This document shows, in pieces, positions 6,799 to 64,000 of a stretch of DNA of 64,000 nucleotides (positions are counted from its first letter, which is position 1; every line of letters begins with the position of its first letter). The position numbers and the translations under genes were made by a program. The notes beneath the pieces were generated by a model, which saw nothing but the letters and a program-made list of their open reading frames with translations, ran no database searches and was not told the origin of the DNA. The stretch lies in the IMG/VR virus record IMGVR_UViG_2911215477_000001, positions 38,486-102,485 of that record; one strand, 5' to 3'. This DNA comes from a virus (lineage: Duplodnaviria > Heunggongvirae > Uroviricota > Caudoviricetes).

Positions 6799-7161
6799 TC
6801 ACAGACAGGCTTCTGCTTCGCCTCGTCGCTTGGAGAAGGAGCTGATCGAGGGAAGCGTGCGCATCGCAACCTCCGTGCCCGTAGCCGACTTCGTGGCAGA
6901 GAGCGTGCTCAGCACCTGGCCCTGCGCACCCGTGCCGGGATTGGGCATCACCAGCGTCCGGTCGTCACCGTTGGGCACGATATGCGCGAACGTGTTCTCT
7001 TCCATCCACTTGGGCTGGACGCACTCAAGATAGGTCTGGGGCGACTTGTCCGTGTGCGCAGTGAACAACGGCTTGCGCTGCTGGATCTCTCCGTAGGACA
7101 CGCAACCCGTCAGCAGGCTACCGATCACAGCGAACGCCACCAATCCCATCTTCAGCTTCAT
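6799..7161 (-). CDS. lipoprotein (signal peptide with LTGC lipobox)
   Basis: MKLKMGLVAFAVIGSLLTGC; RBS AGGAG 5 nt before ATG. Confidence 0.55.
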   Translation of the reverse strand: MKLKMGLVAFAVIGSLLTGCVSYGEIQQRKPLFTAHTDKSPQTYLECVQPKWMEENTFAHIVPNGDDRTLVMPNPGTGAQGQVLSTLSATKSATGTEVAMRTLPSISSFSKRRGEAEACL

Positions 7162-7234
7162 CACCACTCCTGAGTTCTGTTCTATGTAGTTCTATTTTAT
7201 CGACGCGGTGCATTGCCACCGGGTCGTTCCGTCT

Positions 7235-7260
7235 GTGTATGTACGCGCATACGTATAATC
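7235..7260. promoter_or_regulatory. family-A motif GTGTATGTACGCGCATACGTATAATC
   Basis: Palindrome GTATGTACGCGCATAC plus TATAAT, upstream of the XRE regulator. Confidence 0.5.
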
Positions 7261-7287
7261 AATACATACGAACGCACAGAGAGAGCC

Positions 7288-7659
7288 ATGACGGAAGAAG
7301 CCCCTACCCCGCGAAACAGCAAAGCCGATCAGGAGGCAGTAGCTGACGCCCTGGTCGATCAGCTGCACAACACGATTCGCACCCAGATCGCTCGACGCAA
7401 GATCCGAGTAGCCGACATCGCAAGAAATTATGGCTGCTCACAGGTCTATATCTTCAACCTGTTGAAGAACAAGGAAAACGTATCCCTGCGCGTCTTGGGC
7501 AAGCTCGCCCTGGCGATGGGACTGCAGGTGACGCTCGCCTTTGCACCCATCGAAGGCTGGGAAGACCGCGACAACGACATCCCCGGCACGTCGGGCCGAG
7601 ACCTCGACTCCATCGACCTGGACAACGAGATCCAGGAACTGCTCAGGAACTTCGCATGA
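7288..7659 (+). CDS. XRE-family HTH transcriptional regulator
   Basis: ADIARNYGCSQVYIFNLLKNKENVSLRVLGKLALAMG helix-turn-helix; start re-called at MTEEAP. Confidence 0.6.
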   Translation: MTEEAPTPRNSKADQEAVADALVDQLHNTIRTQIARRKIRVADIARNYGCSQVYIFNLLKNKENVSLRVLGKLALAMGLQVTLAFAPIEGWEDRDNDIPGTSGRDLDSIDLDNEIQELLRNFA

Positions 7660-8850: not shown

Positions 8851-8873
8851 CTCTCATTGTTTGCTTTGTTCGC

Positions 8874-9467
8874 TTACGCTTCCAGTGCGAAGCGCTCCCA
8901 TTCTGCGCGCTTGCTGTCAAGCAAAGCGAAAGACTTGTCAGACACGTCAGAGCTGATCCAGTTGAGCGCACGCAGCGCCTTGAGACTGCTAGAGGCTTGC
9001 GTGGGAGCGGTCGAGCTGCCAATGGGGAGTTTCTTCAAAAGCGCATTGGTCACGCCTTTGGTCTGCAATTCGCCAGCATCACGCAGAATGCTGATCGAAG
9101 CGTAAAGCGTCACATTGGGCTTCTCACGCTGCAACACTTCGCGCCAATGGCAACCCTTGCCGAGTGCAGTCACGACAGCTTGCAGCTTGTCCTGCGCGTA
9201 GATAGCGGCGCGCATGGCGTAGGAGTGGTCAACGTGCGCAGTGTAGGCGGCGAGAATCTTCTCATCCTTCAGCATGCCGACCCACTTATCAGCGCGACGC
9301 TTTGCGTTCTTTGCGCTTGTCACTTCGTCGCTGCTCTTATTCTTGTCTGCAATGATCGCAGCAAGCTTGTCAGACTGCGCAGCGTAGTCTGCGCGGAAGT
9401 CGATAGCGTCAGCGACAGTAGCAGCGGCGACGGTCTTAGCAGCGGTCTTAGCGGTCTTAGCCATTTT
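8874..9467 (-). CDS. hypothetical Ala/Lys-rich protein (start MAKTAKTAAK)
   Basis: The ORF-track start lies upstream of the family-A motif at 9524, so the start was moved to the first ATG after the motif and a 5'UTR hairpin. Confidence 0.45.
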   Translation of the reverse strand, partial: KMAKTAKTAAKTVAAATVADAIDFRADYAAQSDKLAAIIADKNKSSDEVTSAKNAKRRADKWVGMLKDEKILAAYTAHVDHSYAMRAAIYAQDKLQAVVTALGKGCHWREVLQREKPNVTLYASISILRDAGELQTKGVTNALLKKLPIGSSTAPTQASSSLKALRALNWISSDVSDKSFALLDSKRAEWERFALEA

Positions 9468-57832: not shown

Positions 57833-58516
57833 CTAGCCCAGAAACAGTTGTGCCTTGCGCTCGATTTCGTGGCGGCTACGACGCGCCACGCTCGGGTGAA
57901 TTTCCATGAGGGAAGCAACGAAACTCAGGGTCAGCTCCTTTCTGGCTCGGGTGGCATAGCCGGCGTTACGACGCAGCTGTGCCCCACGTTGGTATTTGTC
58001 GAACTGGTTCAGGACCACTTCGGGCGGGTTGATCACGCACTCCAGGAGCTGACGGGCGTCGGCACTCAATGCCTTCACCAACTTGTCCGTGGAATCCGCA
58101 TAGGTCACAAGCTCTTCCGGCGTCAGCTCGTCCGAAGCGATCACTGCCCAGAGGCTTTCGCCTTCTTCGTCGTCAGCACGCTGATCCGGATGGAGCACGG
58201 AGCCATGAAGGACGGCCTGCTCGTCTCGCGTGACCAGGCGCTGCAAGTTCTTCCAGCTGGCCTGAATGAAGAAGTTGATGAAGGACGCACCCTTCTCGTC
58301 GTCGTAGGACTGGTCGCAACGGACGAAGGTCAGAGCCAGCTCTTGCTCGATGTCGTCCAGGTCGTAGGGGGCACCAGTGGCCATCACACGAACCATGAAC
58401 TTGTTGGCGAGCTTGTTGATGAGCGGGTAATACTGCTCGACCGTCCTCTTCTCGGAGTGGTGGGTCTTGCGGACCCACACCTCCGACGTTGCTTGGACGT
58501 TTGTCTGCTCGGTCAT
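57833..58516 (-). CDS. sigma-70 family RNA polymerase sigma factor
   Basis: Region 2-like DLDDIEQELALTFVRCDQSYDDEKGASFINFFIQASWKNLQR; start MTEQT with RBS GAGGT. Confidence 0.6.
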   Translation of the reverse strand: MTEQTNVQATSEVWVRKTHHSEKRTVEQYYPLINKLANKFMVRVMATGAPYDLDDIEQELALTFVRCDQSYDDEKGASFINFFIQASWKNLQRLVTRDEQAVLHGSVLHPDQRADDEEGESLWAVIASDELTPEELVTYADSTDKLVKALSADARQLLECVINPPEVVLNQFDKYQRGAQLRRNAGYATRARKELTLSFVASLMEIHPSVARRSRHEIERKAQLFLG

Positions 58517-58526
58517 GGTTTCGACC

Positions 58527-59660
58527 TCAGCCGAACATGCGCTGCATGACGCTGGTCGCGAACGCTGCCGACTGGGGCGGCAGACGATTGATGTAGGCAC
58601 AGGTGATGCCGTACTTGTAGTCGCTGCGAGCCAGGCCCAAGCGGGCTGCAAACTGGAGCGAACGCGGGGACAGCGGGTTCGTGACCTCGCGGCGGTCGAA
58701 CGAGTTGCGCATCATCTTGGCGAACTCGACCAGCTTCTGTGCGACTTCCTTCGCCACGGTGGTCTTGCCCATGAGAAGAGCGATTTCCTGCTTCTCTTCC
58801 ATGTAGTCCTTCTTCATCACGATGCCAAAGCGCTCGTAGTTCGCCGCGTTCTGGATCTGGGTGCCGGCGTACAGACCCGACTCGTCACCCGAGCCGTTCG
58901 TGTTTCCCGTCGCAACGAAGCGGAAGTCGGGGTGGGGTTTGACCACCTTGTTCGCTGCCTTGATACGCAGGGGCTTGCCTTCCAGCACAGCCTGGTAGAT
59001 CGAGCAGACCATCGGGGAGGCGAAGTCGTACTCGTCGGCGTTGTAGATCAGACCGTGTTCCATCGCGAACGGAAGCGGGCCGTCTTCCCAGACCATCTCG
59101 CCGTTCTTGACGCGCCACTGGCCTTCGATGTCGGCTTCTTCGGTGTTCGCGGTGTGCTGGACGCGGAGGTAGCCACGACCCGTGCGGGCTGCGCACTCTT
59201 CGAACAGGGAGGACTTGCCCACGCCCGAGTGACCCCACATGAGGATCGGGATGTTCATCTCCAAGGCCATCATCACCGTCTTGGTGTCGGCAATGTCGAA
59301 GACGTACTTGGAGTCGGCGTCGGGGACGTGAGCCTCGATCTCCGGACGATGACACAGCGAAACCTTGATGGCTTCGCCCAGAGCGTTCATGGCAGCCTTC
59401 GCGGTCGCGGGGAAGCCGAACAGCTCATGGAGAGCGCCGGTCTTCTTCTCGGGGCCAGCAGTGGTGGGAGCGACGGTCACGGACTTCGCAGCCGCGCCCT
59501 TCTTCATGTCGATCTGAGCCTGGGCTTCCGGGGAGAGCGTCGGGGCCAAGGGATACTTCTCCTTGTACGCCTCCAGGGTCATCTCCGGATGGTCTTTCGA
59601 CAGGTGAACTGCGATTGCGTGGGTGGTAGCACCGCACTCCTGGCAAGTGATAGCAGCCAT
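58527..59660 (-). CDS. CobS-like / MoxR-type AAA+ ATPase
   Basis: Walker A GHSGVGKSSL, AAA_5-like core. Confidence 0.65.
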   Translation of the reverse strand: MAAITCQECGATTHAIAVHLSKDHPEMTLEAYKEKYPLAPTLSPEAQAQIDMKKGAAAKSVTVAPTTAGPEKKTGALHELFGFPATAKAAMNALGEAIKVSLCHRPEIEAHVPDADSKYVFDIADTKTVMMALEMNIPILMWGHSGVGKSSLFEECAARTGRGYLRVQHTANTEEADIEGQWRVKNGEMVWEDGPLPFAMEHGLIYNADEYDFASPMVCSIYQAVLEGKPLRIKAANKVVKPHPDFRFVATGNTNGSGDESGLYAGTQIQNAANYERFGIVMKKDYMEEKQEIALLMGKTTVAKEVAQKLVEFAKMMRNSFDRREVTNPLSPRSLQFAARLGLARSDYKYGITCAYINRLPPQSAAFATSVMQRMFG

Positions 59661-59761: not shown

Positions 59762-61870
59762 TCAGGTAACAACGATTTTCTTGAGCAGTGCCAGGATGCG
59801 CTCCGGGATCTCCTCGACGCGACCGATGACCTCGGCGTTCTTGTAGAACTCCTTGACGGAGTGATCCATCAAGCCAAGGCCGTAGATCTCCAGTCCAGCA
59901 CGCTCCATCTCCTTGATGACCTTCTTCAGGTGGGAGCCGAGACCGTGCGCGCAGTAAGCAGCGGGTGCGCCATCGGACATGACGATCATCACCTTTCGTG
60001 CTTCCTTCTGGGCAACCAGGCGAGTCGCTGCCTGTTCGATAGATTCACCATCGACGTTGTTGCGGAGGATGCCGTAAAGCTCGGGCATGTATGCCAGCGC
60101 TTTCTTCTGGGAGTCGTTGAAGCGCTCCTTGAACTCCTTCAGGACGTAGAGTGCGAGCGGTTCCACGCGACCGTATTTGAAGCCACCTGTGCCGCCTTCC
60201 CAGATCGCCTTGTAGACCTCGCCTGCTCGTTTGAAGCCCAGCGAGTCCGCAATGCGGTCGTCGAGCGTGGAGAACGCCACGATTTCACAAGCCACGCCGA
60301 TGCGTTGCAGCAGGGTCGCGAAGATATAGGCAGCGACGCACGCAGCTTCGATCTTGCCACCGGACATTGAGCCCGAAGCGTCGATGACCAGCTGCACTGC
60401 GACCGACTTGGTAGTGGTCTCTAGCTTCGTGCGGAACACGCGGTCGTCGCCAGAGATCAGCTTGTGCAGTCCAGCTCGATGGAGCTTGCCCTTCTTCTGG
60501 GCAGGCAACCAACGGGCAGCACTGCGGGCGCGGAACACACGCTCGACCTCGGACTGAAGACCCGGCGACATGCTTTCCGCCTGGCGGGGAATCTTGCTTC
60601 CGGAGAGGGTCTTCCCGTCCCACTGGTTCGGGTAGGGCAGCCTGCCGACGTAATCCCCGTCTCGACTGTAGGGCAGATACTTGCTGGGCGACTTCGAAAG
60701 GTGCGCAGCCAGGTCAGACGAGATTGCCTCGGACATGGTGTCATCCATGTCCTTCACATCATCGGTGTCGAACGCTGCGACGGCGGACTCTTCACGCGAA
60801 TGTCCACCAAGACCGCCCGTGCCTTCGTTCGGCTCGTCGTCCTCTTCCTCTTCTTCGTCCTCGTCGTCGTAGTCGTCAGCACCCGTGCCGCCGTCTCCGT
60901 CACCCTCGCCGTCACCGCCCTCGCCTTCCCTGGAGTCCTCACCCTCTTCGGACTCGTCCTTCTTTTCCTCGGACTCTTCCTCGTCACCACCCTCACCCTC
61001 TTCGGACTCTTCGGGCTTCTCTTCGGGCTTGGGCTTTTCCTTCTTCTCGGGCTTGGACTTCTCGCCCTCTTCCTCTTCGGATTTCTTTGCGGGCTTGCCG
61101 GACTTGGTGCCGGAGCTGGACGACTTACCACCGCCCTTGCCCGACGCAGACTTTTTCTTCCCACCGCCACCGGAGTCACCCGGCTCGCCTTCACCCTCGG
61201 ACTCTTCGGACTCTTCGTGCATGGCATCGAAGATCGCCTGGGCGACGCTGACAGCGGTCGTGGTGGAGTTGACGGACTTGATCTCCTTCTCCATCGACTG
61301 CAGCACGGTTCCGACCTTCCCCATCAACGGCCACTTGCCGTCCATGAAGTTCGCGAACTCGGTGTAGCCATAGAGCGCACGGATCGCAGCTGCAATGAGG
61401 ATGCCGGCGAACTTGTACTGATCGGCACCTGCTGCGACTGCCTTCTCGTAGGTGGGAGCGATCATGCGGCTGATCGCGAAGATGCGCGTGTCGCCCAGGT
61501 TGCGGCCCGACCCGTAGAACTTGTCGGCCATGCGCTTCTCGATCATGCAGTCTTCGAGAATGTTCCAATAGGCGTGCTTCTCTTCGCTCTTGCCCTTCTT
61601 GTGCAGCTCCTTGATGACGTAAGCCATGTCGGTGAAGAGCAGATGCGCGACCTCGTGATCCAAGAAGCCCTGGATCGCAATCATCAGATCGCGGGGTGCA
61701 TCATCGGGAAGCGACGGCAGGGTCACGCACTGCGGCTGACCGTCTTTGTTGTACGCGACGTGGGCCTTCAGACCCTCCTGGCGGACTTCGATGTTCGAAT
61801 CCGTCAGGGCGCGAGTGACTCGCCCAATCGTCTCGCGCAGATACTGCACATCCTGCAAACCAGTGGCCAT
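59762..61870 (-). CDS. CobT-like vWA-domain protein with long acidic low-complexity linker
   Basis: MIDAS motif VIDASGSM; E/D/G-rich region of about 150 aa. Confidence 0.6.
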   Translation of the reverse strand: MATGLQDVQYLRETIGRVTRALTDSNIEVRQEGLKAHVAYNKDGQPQCVTLPSLPDDAPRDLMIAIQGFLDHEVAHLLFTDMAYVIKELHKKGKSEEKHAYWNILEDCMIEKRMADKFYGSGRNLGDTRIFAISRMIAPTYEKAVAAGADQYKFAGILIAAAIRALYGYTEFANFMDGKWPLMGKVGTVLQSMEKEIKSVNSTTTAVSVAQAIFDAMHEESEESEGEGEPGDSGGGGKKKSASGKGGGKSSSSGTKSGKPAKKSEEEEGEKSKPEKKEKPKPEEKPEESEEGEGGDEEESEEKKDESEEGEDSREGEGGDGEGDGDGGTGADDYDDEDEEEEEDDEPNEGTGGLGGHSREESAVAAFDTDDVKDMDDTMSEAISSDLAAHLSKSPSKYLPYSRDGDYVGRLPYPNQWDGKTLSGSKIPRQAESMSPGLQSEVERVFRARSAARWLPAQKKGKLHRAGLHKLISGDDRVFRTKLETTTKSVAVQLVIDASGSMSGGKIEAACVAAYIFATLLQRIGVACEIVAFSTLDDRIADSLGFKRAGEVYKAIWEGGTGGFKYGRVEPLALYVLKEFKERFNDSQKKALAYMPELYGILRNNVDGESIEQAATRLVAQKEARKVMIVMSDGAPAAYCAHGLGSHLKKVIKEMERAGLEIYGLGLMDHSVKEFYKNAEVIGRVEEIPERILALLKKIVVT

Positions 61871-61933
61871 TCTCTCTTCTCTCCGTTATGCGTCGCGCTC
61901 GCATTGAATATGTATGCGCGTACATACGAGTAT

Positions 61934-61990: not shown

Positions 61991-62299
61991 TTACAGGACT
62001 TTCGTAGCGAGAGGGATCAGCAACGAGAACGCAGCGGTCAGCGCGTGCGCTCCCAGCAAGCGGACGTGAGGCGTCAACGCATGGGTTGCAAAGAGAACTA
62101 CTGCCGAGGTGCTCTGGACGATATACATCAGTCCGACCTTCGGGTGCTTCGCGACGGTGAGCATCAGCCCATCCATGTCGCGGCTTTGAATCTGGGTGCT
62201 TTCGGAGAGAACTTCCTCCAGGGCGTCCGTAGACAATTCCCACGGCTGCATCTGCTGGTTGGGCAAAGCGTCCATCGTGTCCCACTTCAACTGCTTCAT
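61991..62299 (-). CDS. hypothetical protein
   Basis: RBS GAAGGAAG. Confidence 0.4.
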   Translation of the reverse strand: MKQLKWDTMDALPNQQMQPWELSTDALEEVLSESTQIQSRDMDGLMLTVAKHPKVGLMYIVQSTSAVVLFATHALTPHVRLLGAHALTAAFSLLIPLATKVL

Positions 62300-62454
62300 A
62301 TTTTTCTTCCTTCAGGGGTCAACCAAGTTTCTTGTTATGCGTTGCGTAAGAAATTGTAGGAAGCTTGTCGTAAGGAAGGTATTGGCATTTCATGCAGTAG
62401 GAAAAGGACTACAAGCTCCCATACGGTGACGTAGTTGGTCACTTTTCAGCCGAG

Positions 62455-63177
62455 TCACATGGTCGCGAGTTCGATCAACCCAAGAGCGACGGACACGGCA
62501 CATAGGGCGGCTTTGTTTCGCACCCCTAATCGGTCACTGGCCATGTTGAGGTGCGCATTGACGGTGCGCATGGAAATCCCAAGGCGTTCAGCAACTTCCT
62601 CGGCAGTGAGTCCTTGGGCGGATAACTCAACGACCGCAACCTGCTGAGGCGTCAAAATTTCGACGCTCGATTTCACTCCGTCATCCTCTCGACTGAGGGC
62701 GTAGTGCATGTGCCCAAAAAAGGCATACATGTCGTTCTCCCTCTGCATCGCGTGCCAGAGAGGAATGTCAGCTTTCGTGGCAAGACACATGATCATCCAG
62801 TTCCGAGCGGTGTGTCGGTCCTGGAGGATGACGCCGGAATGGATCCCGTTCTGTCTCCACAGATTTATCGCGCACGGTTCTTCGGTGAGGACTTGCAGCG
62901 CTGTGTTGTAGACAGCCTGCCCGTCATCACGCCATGCGGTTACAGGAGCAGTGCTCCAGAGAATGTCGTAAGCATCTTTGCCTCGATTCTCTTTCCATAT
63001 CTGGATGCGCTGTTCCCAGGCACCCGTAGGCATGTTGTCGAACGTATAGATATGACCGGAAGCGCGGCGGCCTATCACCGCCAGAAACTCATAACCGAGG
63101 TTCGTTGCGATCCGATAAGCGTGTTCCCTAAGCCGATTTCCATCCTCGGAAGCCAGTCCGGAGATGTCCCTAGGCAT
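62455..63177 (-). CDS. LuxR-family transcriptional regulator (autoinducer-binding N-domain plus GerE/LuxR HTH)
   Basis: C-terminal LTPQQVAVVELSAQGLTAEEVAERLGISMRTVNAHL; the N-terminal 170 aa have Trp/Tyr/Asp spacing like an autoinducer-binding domain. Confidence 0.6.
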   Translation of the reverse strand: MPRDISGLASEDGNRLREHAYRIATNLGYEFLAVIGRRASGHIYTFDNMPTGAWEQRIQIWKENRGKDAYDILWSTAPVTAWRDDGQAVYNTALQVLTEEPCAINLWRQNGIHSGVILQDRHTARNWMIMCLATKADIPLWHAMQRENDMYAFFGHMHYALSREDDGVKSSVEILTPQQVAVVELSAQGLTAEEVAERLGISMRTVNAHLNMASDRLGVRNKAALCAVSVALGLIELATM

Positions 63178-63303
63178 GGGGCAGCCCTCCGTAAGAACCG
63201 GAAATTGTGAGGCTTTTCTCTTGTATAAGTCTTTTGGGACGGGGCGAAAAGTCTTGCGATTTACTCGTTGTTAAGCGAACTAACTATTGGTAACGTAGTC
63301 CCC

Positions 63304-63328
63304 GCATATAATCAGTACGTACATACAT
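63304..63328. promoter_or_regulatory. family-A motif CATATAATCAGTACGTACATACATC
   Basis: TATAAT plus palindrome GTACGTAC. Confidence 0.45.
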
Positions 63329-63350
63329 CGTCACACGGAGAGAAGATTTC

Positions 63351-63761
63351 ATGCCTGCGAACCCGGTATCCAACTACCTGAAAGCGAAGATCGAAGCGAC
63401 CGGCAAGACGCTCAAGGAGTTGGGAGCGGAAGCCGGCTTCAAGCAAGCGAACGCTTTCGTCCTCCTCAAGAGCGGCGACATGCGTCTGCCGATGGACCGC
63501 ATCCCTGGCGTTGCGAAGGCCATCGAGGCTGACGAGAAGGAACTCTTCGAACTCGCCCTGAAGCACTACGAGCCCACCGTCTACAAGATGATGCAGAAGC
63601 ACTACGCAGCCGGCGCAGTCGATCCTGAAGAGGTGAAGCTCCTGGCTGAGATAAAGCGCGCCATCGGCGGCAAGAGCATCAAGCACGATGCCAAGACGCG
63701 CTCTCTCATCCAGGAGGTTGTGAAGAACGTCTACGTCGGCGCAGCGCTCAAGAAGGCTTAA
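63351..63761 (+). CDS. HTH DNA-binding protein
   Basis: RBS GGAGAGAAG; helix-turn-helix-like LKELGAEAGFKQANAFVLLKSGD. Confidence 0.45.
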   Translation: MPANPVSNYLKAKIEATGKTLKELGAEAGFKQANAFVLLKSGDMRLPMDRIPGVAKAIEADEKELFELALKHYEPTVYKMMQKHYAAGAVDPEEVKLLAEIKRAIGGKSIKHDAKTRSLIQEVVKNVYVGAALKKA

Positions 63762-64000
63762 TTGATCGTCTTCTGGCGATGCTTGCGAAACCAATCTAGC
63801 GTCGCTCCCAACTCGTAACGAACGATTCGGCCCGTCTGGATAAAAGGCGGGCCTTTTCTTTGCCAGCGGTTGTTGATGAACCACTTCTCGCTCAGTCCGA
63901 GCAGTGCGGCAATCTCTTCGGTCGTCAAAGGCATGTCAGGCGCAGTCCTGGCCATGCGCTCCACACGCTCGTCCAGCGTGAGCGTTCTCAGTGCTCCCAT
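63758..64000 (-). CDS. AlpA/excisionase-like HTH protein; start may lie beyond the window edge
   Basis: LTTEEIAALLGLSEKWFINNRWQRKGPPFIQTGRIVRY, an AlpA/MerR-type motif. Confidence 0.45.
   Translation of the reverse strand: MGALRTLTLDERVERMARTAPDMPLTTEEIAALLGLSEKWFINNRWQRKGPPFIQTGRIVRYELGATLDWFRKHRQKTIN

What the first reader, a model, noticed from the sequence alone, without database searches (positions are those of the whole stretch)
62455..63177. Phage-borne LuxR-type receptor homologue (autoinducer-binding domain plus LuxR HTH)
The 240-aa protein has the GerE/LuxR C-terminal HTH and an N-terminal domain of the right size and aromatic/acidic pattern for acyl-homoserine-lactone binding. It is divergently arranged with an HTH regulator (63351..63761) and adjacent to an AlpA-like protein. 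Phage-encoded LuxR solos that eavesdrop on host quorum signals are known but rare. Here it could link lysis or early-gene decisions, or control of the family-A regulon, to host cell density.
Basis: partly seen in the sequence, partly recalled or inferred. Interest (0 to 1): 0.6.

Follow-up and report, generated by a model that had tools for sequence, protein, structure and literature searches.

The report
Divergent LuxR-type regulator on Dyella prophage
A large virus integrated in the chromosome of the soil bacterium Dyella telluris carries a real, conserved regulator gene with a certain LuxR DNA-binding end and an almost unique sensor-like front half that only faintly resembles quorum-signal receptors, so calling it a signal-eavesdropping receptor is plausible but unproven.

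Summary
The 240-aa ORF at 62455-63177 (-) is real. It has a strong RBS, NCBI annotates the same protein (WP_187057233.1), and a 90%-identical copy in a sister phage gives dN/dS of 0.08. Residues 174-226 are a clear GerE/LuxR HTH. An exhaustive search of 1.84 billion proteins found only the sister copy. Weaker evidence still points to a very divergent autoinducer-binding-like domain. The full-length profile alignment is collinear and beats 400/400 shuffles. An unbiased but low-confidence AF2 model returns AHL receptors as its top 24 Foldseek hits. W54, D68 and W82 align with TraR W57, D70 and W85, but that coincidence arises in 10% of shuffles, and both Tyr contacts are lost. The context also changes. 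The "phage" is a prophage of at least 73 kb integrated beside tRNA-Lys in Dyella telluris, and the gene lies about 2 kb from the att junction, divergent from a 136-aa orphan gene. That layout recalls the phage TF-smORF induction modules. No lux box was found and the ligand is unknown. Verdict: partly supported; a new variant of a known kind; moderate interest.

The parts
62455..63177 (-). LuxR-like gene, 240 aa (WP_187057233.1 / QNK01774.1 of Dyella telluris)
   Evidence: ORF; identical protein on CP060412.1; 90%-identical syntenic copy P0001; dN/dS 0.08
62674..63177 (-). N-terminal domain, residues 1-168. It is a sensor-like alpha/beta domain and a two-member orphan by sequence, probably a very divergent relative of the LuxR autoinducer-binding domain.
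   Evidence: No Pfam or PDB sequence hit; only the sister copy in 1.84e9 representatives; -1.3 bits against my own LuxR profile; collinear full-length hhalign, 0/400 shuffles reach the score; Foldseek top 24 are AHL receptors; dN/dS 0.11
62500..62658 (-). GerE/LuxR-type helix-turn-helix, residues 174-226
63185..63190 (-). Shine-Dalgarno sequence GGAGGG, 7 nt upstream of the ATG
   Evidence: Read from the sequence; identical in the sister phage
63178..63350 (.). 173-bp divergent intergenic region between the LuxR-like gene and the 136-aa gene; presumed control region
   Evidence: 94% identical to the sister phage although luxR dS is about 0.6; no sigma-70 consensus promoter; no conserved dyad with half-sites of 6 or more
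63307..63329 (+). TATAAT (63307-63312) abutting a degenerate copy of the phage palindrome (63312-63329), 22 nt upstream of the 136-aa gene's ATG
63351..63761 (+). Counter-oriented 136-aa orphan gene (WP_187057234.1); candidate regulated partner or effector of the module
   Evidence: ORF; two-member cluster, 'XRE family' only by UniRef name; no Pfam or PDB hit; dN/dS 0.04
63758..64000 (-). 80-aa gene with a weak HTH_17/excisionase-like match, next to the att junction; candidate Xis/AlpA-type protein
   Evidence: HTH_17 21.7 bits and TIGR01764 weak; phrog_668 and phrog_57; arm-type repeats and tRNA-Lys lie just beyond it
61991..62299 (-). 102-aa orphan gene immediately downstream of the LuxR-like gene
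   Evidence: ORF; two-member cluster; no Pfam, PHROG or PADLOC hit; dN/dS 0.13
63190..63208 (-). Motif ACAATTTC-N6-TTACG just upstream of the luxR RBS; a related copy (CTACAATTTCTTACG, 62345-62359) precedes the 102-aa gene
   Evidence: these are the only two good copies in the window
61909..61926 (.). Nearest full copy of the 18-bp phage palindrome TATGTATG-NN-CRTACATA, upstream of the CobT-like gene. It is one of about 25 in the window and a possible, untested target of the LuxR-like protein.

Best explanation
The gene encodes a two-domain transcription factor of the LuxR superfamily, carried in the att-proximal regulatory module of a large temperate siphophage integrated next to tRNA-Lys in Dyella telluris. 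The C-terminal GerE/LuxR helix-turn-helix binds DNA, presumably as a dimer. The N-terminal 168 residues form a selectively maintained alpha/beta sensor-type domain. It is most likely an extremely diverged relative of the LuxR autoinducer-binding (GAF/PAS-like) domain, so diverged that no profile recognises it.

By analogy with the phage TF-smORF modules (VqmA-Qtip; XRE-LuxR-smORF of ARM81ld and Apop), I infer that a small-molecule or protein cue sensed by the N-terminal domain changes the protein's folding, dimerisation or DNA binding. That would in turn change transcription from the 173-bp divergent control region: the counter-oriented 136-aa orphan gene, the gene itself, and/or the downstream 102-aa gene. 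This would feed into the prophage's lysogeny-lysis decision.

Shown: the gene is real and under purifying selection; the HTH; the orphan status of the N-terminal domain; integration and temperate context; the divergent architecture.
Inferred: homology of the N-terminal domain to Autoind_bind; ligand responsiveness; the regulatory targets.
The ligand is unknown, and an AHL is only one possibility.
For: - Real gene.
- HTH.
- N-terminal domain maintained: dN/dS 0.11 at dS 0.56.
- Weak but specific similarity to LuxR receptors. phmmer alignments to TraR (110-232 to 108-231, E=6.6e-4) and SdiA extend past the HTH. The NCBIfam TraR model aligns 111-235. The tblastn hit covering the most of the query in plasmids (104-240) is a LuxR next to an AHL synthase. 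The full-length hhalign is collinear over 3-240, and its score is reached by 3/100 and 0/400 N-terminal shuffles, while a response-regulator control shows no signal at z=-0.4.
- MAFFT independently places W54, D68, W82, G111 and G115 in invariant family columns.
- The unbiased AF2 model has the secondary-structure order of a LuxR ligand-binding domain, and its top 24 Foldseek hits are all AHL receptors, ahead of PAS-HTH, GerE-only and response-regulator hits.
- Temperate context: the exact protein lies on the Dyella telluris chromosome with host genes and a tRNA cluster beyond it. The sister contig ends in the same tRNA-Lys 3' segment and shares arm-type repeats. Terminase, portal and tail genes lie on the other side.
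- Architectural parallel to TF-smORF modules: PMC10432266, PMC9894119.
Against: - Pfam Autoind_bind: no hit at E<=1.
- My own LuxR-receptor HMM gives -1.3 bits for the N-terminal domain with all filters off.
- hhalign of the N-terminal domain alone: E=0.27. No PDB sequence hit at E<=10.
- Genuine family members find each other over their full length by plain phmmer at E=1e-6 to 1e-20, so this protein lies far outside normal family divergence.
- Both AF2 models are low-confidence in the N-terminal domain (pLDDT 35-56 unbiased; 50-74 with a family MSA, and below 50 for residues 66-84, which hold D68 and W82).
- Hallmark-residue matches are not statistically meaningful.
- No dyad operator was found in the control region, so the DNA target is unknown.
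- The 136-aa gene is larger than the described smORFs, and the xre-luxR operon arrangement of ARM81ld is not reproduced here.
Confidence: 0.5

Rival explanations
1. It is a genuine AHL receptor. The N-terminal domain binds an acyl-homoserine lactone made by the host or by neighbouring bacteria, using W54 and D68 for hydrogen bonds and W82 for stacking on the lactone. This would couple prophage decisions to cell density.
For: W54, D68, W82 and G111 align with TraR W57, D70, W85 and G113 in three independent alignments, and the W54-to-W82 spacing equals the TraR W57-to-W85 spacing at 28 residues. AHL receptors are the best Foldseek hits. Phage LuxRs that bind host AHLs are established (PMC6456758, PMC9894119, PMC13345283).
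Against: The profile tests fail. The two Tyr contacts (TraR Y53 and Y61) are M49 and I58, and P71 is A69. The W/D/W match arises in 40/400 shuffles. The pocket segment 66-84 has pLDDT below 50 even in the guided model. No lux box was found. I found no evidence that Dyella produces AHLs. Known phage LuxRs are about 48% identical to host receptors (PMC6456758), whereas this protein has no detectable bacterial relative.
Confidence: 0.17
2. It is a LuxR-family regulator whose N-terminal domain is not a quorum-signal receptor at all. The domain would be a novel or PAS/GAF-like oligomerisation or protein-interaction domain, and the protein would act as a constitutive prophage transcription factor or as a lysogenic-conversion regulator of host genes (a moron).
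Against: The collinear full-length similarity is specific to LuxR receptors and absent for the response-regulator control. AHL receptors consistently rank first. The sequence matches extending to residues 104-126 are all to autoinducer-type LuxRs.
Confidence: 0.25
3. It is the repressor that binds the 18-bp palindrome TATGTATG-NN-CRTACATA found at about 25 promoters of the prophage. It would act as an EsaR-like LuxR that holds lytic genes off until a ligand releases it.
For: The motif is an 8-2-8 dyad, the same size class as the 18-bp tra box bound by LuxR-type dimers (own knowledge). There are about 25 sites against 0.12 expected. The sites abut -10-like hexamers, so they cover the transcription start, which is an operator position. 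The motif and the gene co-occur in both sister phages and both are absent from ANB28. The luxR promoter itself lacks a full site.
Against: The co-occurrence amounts to a single phylogenetic event. There are other DNA-binding candidates: a Cro/C1-type HTH_26 protein at 7213-7659 in a divergent, switch-like arrangement with palindromes between the genes, the 136-aa protein, and a sigma-like factor. The palindrome could also act as a 5' RNA hairpin. No half-site similarity to the tra or lux boxes (inspection of the consensus). A viral-collection scan for the motif was uninformative.
Confidence: 0.1
4. It is a NarL/FixJ-type response regulator, as NCBI names it, with a phosphorylatable receiver domain.
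For: NCBI product name. The closest HTH sequences belong to NarL/FixJ response regulators.
Against: No Response_reg (PF00072) hit. hhalign against a response-regulator profile shows no N-terminal signal (z=-0.4). The N-terminal domain is 168 aa, against about 120 for a receiver domain (own knowledge). The predicted secondary-structure order is not the alternating beta-alpha pattern of a receiver domain. Response regulators rank below the LuxR receptors in Foldseek.
Confidence: 0.02

Closest known systems
Phage-encoded LuxR-type quorum-sensing receptors LuxR(ARM81ld) and LuxR(Apop) within XRE-LuxR-smORF modules (PMC6456758, PMC9894119, PMC10432266)
   Same: A LuxR-family two-domain regulator encoded by a temperate phage. 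It lies in a regulatory module with a counter-oriented small gene across an intergenic region of about 150-170 bp and with a putative XRE-type neighbour. The expected output is an SOS-independent route into the lysis-lysogeny decision.
   Different: - Those proteins are recognised by the InterPro autoinducer-binding superfamily, are about 48% identical to the host receptor AhyR, and bind C4-HSL. This one fails all such profiles and has no bacterial relative.
- Those phages are about 47-kb linear plasmid-like prophages of Aeromonas. This one is a chromosomally integrated siphophage of at least 73 kb in Dyella.
- There, xre and luxR form an operon opposite a smORF of about 50 aa. Here the putative XRE-like gene (136 aa) is itself the counter-oriented gene.
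Bacterial AHL receptors TraR, SdiA, RhlR, QscR, LasR (Pfam Autoind_bind PF03472 + GerE PF00196)
   Same: Length and domain order; the GerE HTH; a collinear weak alignment; Trp, Asp, Trp and Gly at the positions of TraR W57, D70, W85 and G113; the predicted order of secondary-structure elements; best Foldseek matches.
   Different: The N-terminal domain is not significant with any sequence or profile method. TraR Y53, Y61 and P71 are replaced. Of the HTH hallmarks E178, L182 and G188, only the Gly is identical (Q179, V183, G189). No cognate LuxI gene is nearby and no lux box was found.
LuxR solos with altered pockets, e.g. the plant-associated-bacteria solos XccR and OryR of Xanthomonas (PMC10134790)
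   Same: No adjacent synthase gene; substitutions at canonical pocket positions, which suggest a non-AHL ligand; occurrence in the Xanthomonadales lineage.
   Different: Those solos carry the specific W57M/Y61W pair and are still recognised as Autoind_bind proteins. This protein keeps the Trp (W54), has Ile at the Y61 position, and is not recognised. Those are chromosomal host genes, not prophage genes.
VqmA(Phage)-Qtip of vibriophage VP882 and other TF-smORF modules (PMC10432266)
   Same: A phage sensor-HTH transcription factor divergent from a small orphan gene. PAS/GAF-like sensor plus LuxR-type HTH architecture. VqmA appears among the Foldseek hits.
   Different: VqmA has a PAS domain that binds DPO, and it ranks below the AHL receptors here. 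There is no sequence similarity outside the HTH.

Membership tests
LuxR-type AHL quorum-sensing receptors (Autoind_bind + GerE) | C-terminal GerE/LuxR-type helix-turn-helix (PF00196) | tested here: met
LuxR-type AHL quorum-sensing receptors (Autoind_bind + GerE) | N-terminal domain matches the autoinducer-binding profile (Pfam PF03472 / InterPro IPR036693) | tested here: not met
   No PF03472 hit at E<=1; -1.3 bits against an HMM of 28 Autoind_bind receptors with filters off; hhalign of the N-terminal domain alone E=0.27; no PDB chain at E<=10. Positive control: a true LuxR finds RhlR, TraR, SdiA, LasR and CviR over full length at E=1e-20 to 1e-6. IPR036693 itself could not be run.
LuxR-type AHL quorum-sensing receptors (Autoind_bind + GerE) | Six conserved ligand-domain residues W57, Y61, D70, P71, W85, G113 (TraR numbering; PMC10134790) | tested here: inconclusive
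   W54, D68, W82 and G111/G115 align with W57, D70, W85 and G113. Y61 aligns with I58 (Q59 or W61 in other alignments) and P71 with A69. However, 4 or more of 7 hallmark identities arise in 22% of composition-matched shuffles, and the W/D/W trio in 10%.
LuxR-type AHL quorum-sensing receptors (Autoind_bind + GerE) | Three conserved HTH residues E178, L182, G188 | tested here: inconclusive
   By alignment with SdiA and TraR these are Q179, V183 and G189: one identical and two conservative replacements
LuxR-type AHL quorum-sensing receptors (Autoind_bind + GerE) | Alpha/beta/alpha sandwich fold of the ligand-binding domain | tested here: inconclusive
LuxR-type AHL quorum-sensing receptors (Autoind_bind + GerE) | Binds an acyl-homoserine lactone (ligand-dependent folding or solubility) | not testable with these tools
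   Needs protein biochemistry.
LuxR-type AHL quorum-sensing receptors (Autoind_bind + GerE) | Acts at an 18-20-bp dyad 'lux box' (CTG-N10-CAG type) near target promoters | tested here: not met
   No 20-bp CTG-N10-CAG palindrome with 8 or more of 10 pairs in the window. The four weaker sites are all inside coding sequence and close to the chance count. No conserved dyad in either flanking intergenic region.
NarL/FixJ response regulators (NCBI's product name) | N-terminal receiver (REC, PF00072) domain with a phospho-acceptor Asp | tested here: not met
   No PF00072 hit; hhalign against a response-regulator profile adds nothing over shuffles (z=-0.4); the order of secondary-structure elements is not receiver-like
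Phage TF-smORF induction modules (PMC10432266) | Phage transcription-factor gene with a counter-oriented small orphan gene across a short intergenic region, on a temperate phage | tested here: met
   luxR-like (-) and the 136-aa orphan (+) are separated by 173 bp. Integration at tRNA-Lys with arm-type repeats. Caveat: 136 aa is larger than the roughly 50-80-aa smORFs described.
Phage TF-smORF induction modules (PMC10432266) | The TF activates the small gene, whose product inactivates the cI repressor and triggers lysis | not testable with these tools
   Requires reporter, EMSA and induction experiments
Plant-associated-bacteria LuxR solos (XccR/OryR type) | W57M and Y61W substitutions in an otherwise recognisable Autoind_bind domain (PMC10134790) | tested here: not met
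   The W57 position is Trp (W54). The Y61 position is I58 in the SdiA- and TraR-anchored alignments, and W61 only in one hhalign variant. The domain is not recognised by Pfam.

The most novel reading that the evidence does not exclude
The LuxR-like protein is a ligand-gated master repressor of this temperate siphophage of roughly 100 kb. As an EsaR-like dimer it would occupy the 18-bp palindromes that overlap the transcription start of about 25 early and middle promoters. An as yet unknown small molecule, sensed by a new and highly diverged branch of the autoinducer-binding fold, would release it and induce the prophage. That would be chemical induction acting directly at the global repressor, rather than through an antirepressor.
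Probability: 0.08. Interest if true: 0.8.

Novelty: new variant of a known kind. Interest (0 to 1): 0.4.

Why it matters
Phage-encoded LuxR receptors let prophages time induction by listening to bacterial signals. The known examples were all found through recognisable autoinducer-binding domains that closely resemble the host's own receptors. This protein would extend the idea in three ways.
- To a sensor domain so diverged that domain-based surveys miss it.
- To a large chromosomally integrated siphophage related to the ANB28 / nickie / RHEph10 group.
- To the Xanthomonadales, where AHL signalling is not the default (own knowledge), so the ligand may be new.

If the N-terminal domain binds a small molecule, it defines a new receptor subgroup and a testable induction pathway in Dyella. 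If it does not, the case is a useful warning that "LuxR HTH plus a 170-aa aromatic-rich N-terminus" is not enough to call a quorum-sensing receptor.

Tried and rejected
- Homologue searches for the N-terminal domain. The word-indexed search at E<=1e-3 and E<=10, exhaustive phmmer of residues 1-168 against 1.84e9 representatives, tblastn against phages and plasmids, and scans of viral, metagenome and genome contigs found only the sister copy.
- P0002-P0004 are repeat-protein artefacts. L004 is a spurious short match.
- Megablast of the region against phage records: no match.
- Response-regulator reading: rejected.
- Defence-system component: PADLOC matches only the HTH segment.
- Footprinting against the sister phage: the intergenic regions are 92-94% identical, too close to resolve sites.
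- Sigma-70 promoter and terminator scan around the gene: nothing above chance.
- Lux-box and general dyad scans: negative.
- The ACAATTTC...TTACG motif is not a regulon; only two copies exist.
- Scanning IMG/VR for the palindrome, to find phages that use it without the LuxR-like gene, returned only single chance-level hits.
- Integrase hunt among ten proteins spread over 3.3-14 kb of the window: none found. Only 10 kb beyond the left end could be viewed.
- Literature on AHL production by Dyella: nothing usable.
- Pocket modelling: not possible, because model coordinates are not exposed to the scripting tool.
Full report
**1. The observation**

An ATG-to-TGA ORF of 240 codons lies at 62455-63177 on the minus strand. 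A GGAGGG Shine-Dalgarno sequence sits 7 nt upstream of the ATG and is conserved in a sister phage. The identical protein is annotated by NCBI as WP_187057233.1, named 'response regulator transcription factor / LuxR C-terminal-related transcriptional regulator'. A 90%-identical copy lies in the same gene order on a 29.8-kb metagenomic contig (P0001/L001). Between the two copies dN/dS is 0.11 for residues 1-168 and 0.04 for residues 169-240, at dS of about 0.6. Both halves are therefore maintained by selection. The gene is real.

**2. The C-terminal domain**

**3. The N-terminal domain: negative results**

- Pfam Autoind_bind does not appear even at E<=1.
- NCBIfam gives only a sub-threshold TraR match (22.5 bits against a cutoff of 250) over residues 111-235.
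- Residues 1-168 alone hit no PDB chain at E<=10.
- An exhaustive phmmer against 1.84 billion representative proteins returned only the sister copy plus three repeat-protein artefacts.
- Scans of viral, metagenome and species-representative genome contigs added nothing.
- An HMM I built from 28 bona fide Autoind_bind+GerE receptors scores the HTH at about 50 bits and the N-terminal domain at -1.3 bits with all filters off.
- hhalign of the N-terminal domain alone is not significant (E=0.27).
- As a positive control, a normal LuxR (Sphingopyxis, next to a LuxI gene) finds RhlR, TraR, SdiA, LasR, QscR and CviR over its full length by plain phmmer at E=1e-20 to 1e-6.

So this protein lies far outside ordinary family divergence.

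**4. The N-terminal domain: positive but weak results**

(a) The PDB phmmer alignments to TraR (110-232 to 108-231) and SdiA (126-235 to 131-240) run well past the HTH and are in register. Among plasmid records, the tblastn hit that covers the most of the query (104-240) is a LuxR adjacent to an AHL synthase.

(b) Full-length hhalign against LuxR-receptor profiles is collinear over 3-240. I shuffled alignment columns 1-168 while keeping the HTH. The observed score was reached by 3/100 shuffles with one profile and 0/400 with another. The same test against a NarL-type response-regulator profile gave z=-0.4.

(c) MAFFT with 26 receptors independently puts W54, D68, W82, G111 and G115 into columns that are invariant in the family.

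(d) An AF2 model made from only the two phage sequences is poor (pLDDT 48). Its secondary-structure order, alpha-beta-(beta)-alpha x4-beta-beta-alpha-beta followed by a 4-helix HTH, is that of a LuxR receptor. Its 24 best Foldseek PDB hits are all AHL receptors (RhlR, SdiA, QscR, TraR, CviR) aligned over about 230-270 columns at E=2e-5 to 7e-4. They rank ahead of VqmA, 3clo and EL222 (about 1e-3), GerE alone (3e-3) and response regulators (1e-2).

My reading: the domain is probably (about 60%) a very diverged member of the autoinducer-binding (GAF/PAS-like) fold class, but membership of the family as defined by its profile is not met.

**5. Ligand-contact residues**

In SdiA- and TraR-anchored alignments the mapping is as follows.

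| TraR / SdiA residue | Phage protein |
|---|---|
| W57 / W67 | W54 |
| D70 / D80 | D68 |
| W85 / W95 | W82 |
| G113 (TraR) | G111 or G115 |
| P71 | A69 |
| Y61 / Y71 | I58 |
| Y53 / Y63 | M49 |

MAFFT offers Y44 for Y53 across a 5-residue insertion. W54 to W82 is 28 residues, as in TraR. However, the domain has seven Trp, and in composition-matched shuffles the aligner produces the same W/D/W trio in 10% of cases and at least 4 of 7 hallmark identities in 22%. The residue pattern is thus compatible with AHL binding but is not evidence for it. Loss of both Tyr contacts resembles what is seen in LuxR solos that respond to non-AHL ligands (PMC10134790), although the specific W57M/Y61W signature of the Xanthomonas-type solos is absent. 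AHL binding gets about 0.17 probability.

**6. Context: a prophage, not a free phage**

- The exact protein maps to the 4.99-Mb chromosome of Dyella telluris (CP060412.1; window coordinate w corresponds to record w+103258).
- The window's neighbours are phage genes: CobT-like VWA protein, CobS-like AAA ATPase, a sigma-like protein, a DnaE-type polymerase about 50% identical to those of Stenotrophomonas phage ANB28, and a gp32-like protein.
- Terminase, portal, capsid-like and tail-terminator genes lie just left of the window, so the element spans at least 73 kb.
- Just right of the window come the 80-aa gene, an array of GGGCTACAG/CTGTAGCCC repeats in both orientations, a tRNA cluster ending in tRNA-Lys(CTT), and then host ftsH, ftsJ, yhbY, an nlpD-like gene, pcm and surE.
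- The sister contig ends inside the same 3' segment of tRNA-Lys and shares the repeats. These look like the att core and arm-type recombinase sites.

The element is therefore a temperate phage integrated at tRNA-Lys, and the LuxR-like gene lies about 2 kb from the junction. ANB28 keeps the CobT-CobS-sigma-DnaE order but has a guanylate kinase and a helicase where the LuxR-like gene sits, and no phage record has a relative of the N-terminal domain. The gene's GC3 (0.63, against about 0.8 for its neighbours) and its dS, 2-3 times that of flanking genes, suggest separately acquired cargo.

**7. Neighbours and regulatory DNA**

The counter-oriented 136-aa gene is a two-member orphan under strong constraint (dN/dS 0.04). 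It has no Pfam or PDB match, and only UniRef calls it XRE. The 80-aa gene has sub-threshold HTH_17/excisionase-like matches, which fits a Xis/AlpA role given its position. The downstream 102-aa gene is also an orphan. The 173-bp divergent region is 94% identical between the two phages. It holds no consensus sigma-70 promoter, no lux-box-type palindrome and no conserved dyad. A short motif, ACAATTTC...TTACG, occurs only upstream of the LuxR-like gene and the 102-aa gene.

**8. The recurrent palindrome**

An 18-bp dyad, TATGTATG-NN-CRTACATA, occurs at about 25 places in the window against 0.12 expected and at 7 places in 12 kb of the sister phage. It is absent from 43 kb of ANB28. Strong sites are intergenic and centred about 45-55 bp upstream of start codons. 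They directly abut a -10-like hexamer (TATAAT, TACAAT, TATACT and similar), so transcription would start inside the palindrome. That is an operator (or 5'-RNA hairpin) position, not the -42.5 position of a LuxR activator box. A degenerate copy follows the TATAAT in front of the 136-aa gene (63307-63329), and two copies precede the 80-aa gene. The LuxR-like and 102-aa genes lack one. The LuxR-like dimer is one candidate binder, since the dyad has the size class of the tra box. A Cro/C1-type protein at 7213-7659, set in a divergent switch-like arrangement with palindromes between the genes, is at least as good a candidate.

**9. Most likely mechanism**

The closest characterised systems are the phage TF-smORF modules. 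In these a phage sensor-transcription factor (VqmA of VP882; XRE plus LuxR of ARM81ld and Apop) activates a counter-oriented small gene about 150 nt away, and that gene's product inactivates cI and triggers SOS-independent lysis (PMC10432266, PMC9894119). The Dyella module has the same logic on paper: a LuxR-type sensor-TF, a counter-oriented constrained orphan gene 173 bp away, a temperate phage, and a location in a regulatory module. I therefore favour (0.5) a cue-responsive LuxR-superfamily regulator that controls the divergent region and thereby influences induction, with the ligand unknown. The rivals are a non-receptor LuxR-family regulator or moron (0.25), a true AHL receptor (0.17), a palindrome-binding master repressor (0.1) and a response regulator (0.02). 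These readings partly overlap.

**10. Novelty and score**

Phage and prophage LuxR receptors are established and are now reported as widespread in Alphaproteobacteria (PMC6456758, PMC13345283). This case differs in four ways: the extreme divergence and orphan status of the sensor domain, the type of phage, the host lineage, and the module layout. I class it as a new variant of a known kind. Interest is 0.4. It is a worthwhile experimental lead, but the headline claim of an AHL-sensing phage receptor is not established by sequence.

Noticed in passing
window 3292, 5208, 6305, 7238, 9522, 12959, 13315, 15229, 23649, 25525, 27751, 30345, 32838, 34123, 37893, 38569, 39763, 44007, 44798, 49278, 53358, 53925, 59706, 61909, 63312 (each 18 bp); L001 345-378, 1070, 2475, 4678, 10449, 11016: The 18-bp palindrome TATGTATG-NN-CRTACATA has about 25 sites against 0.12 expected. 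Most are intergenic and abut a -10-like hexamer, so the transcription start would fall inside the palindrome. It is present in the sister phage and absent from ANB28.
   Followed up: partly
L006 8181-8807 (tRNAs) and about 8870-8990 (repeats); equivalent to window coordinates 64188-64446, just outside the window: The prophage-host junction. A tRNA-Arg, Pro, Arg, His, Lys(CTT) cluster lies after ftsH. It is followed by an array of GGGCTACAG/CTGTAGCCC direct and inverted repeats, which look like arm-type integrase/Xis sites. The sister contig ends inside the same 3' part of tRNA-Lys.
   Followed up: partly
window 6799-7167 (-) and 7213-7659 (+), palindromes at 7234-7255: A divergent gene pair, one member a Cro/C1-type HTH_26 protein (148 aa), with overlapping copies of the phage palindrome between or at the start of the genes. 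This is a canonical-looking lysis-lysogeny switch and an alternative binder of the palindrome.
   Followed up: no
window 62455-63177 compared with its neighbours: The LuxR-like gene has GC3 of 0.63, against about 0.75-0.85 for most prophage genes. Its synonymous divergence from the sister phage (dS 0.64) is 2-3 times that of the flanking genes (0.22-0.29). The flanking intergenic DNA is 92-94% identical. This suggests separately acquired or recombining cargo and constrained regulatory DNA.
   Followed up: partly
window 57833-58537 (-): A phage-encoded sigma-like protein (Sigma70_r2 at 23.4 bits, just under the cutoff; phrog_3741 and phrog_351), conserved in position in ANB28 between the CobS-like gene and a 197-aa gene upstream of DnaE.
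   Followed up: no
window 59762-61870 (-): The CobT-like VWA protein has a long acidic, low-complexity Glu/Asp/Gly/Lys-rich insert. Its dN/dS against the sister phage (0.31) is the highest among the genes compared.
   Followed up: no
whole window; L005 (ANB28), L025: The prophage's closest relatives in the phage database (Stenotrophomonas ANB28, Xanthomonas JGB6, Rhizobium RHEph10, Pseudomonas nickie; DnaE about 40-50% identical) are genomes of about 106-122 kb from isolated phages. Here a member of this lineage is chromosomally integrated. The lineage also carries DHFR, a UvsW-like helicase, two ParB_N proteins and a gp32-like protein.
   Followed up: partly
window 62420-62436: The inverted repeat GTGAC-N7-GTCAC lies right after the LuxR-like gene's stop codon, and its arms are conserved in the sister phage. 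It has no T-run, so it is not a typical intrinsic terminator.
   Followed up: no
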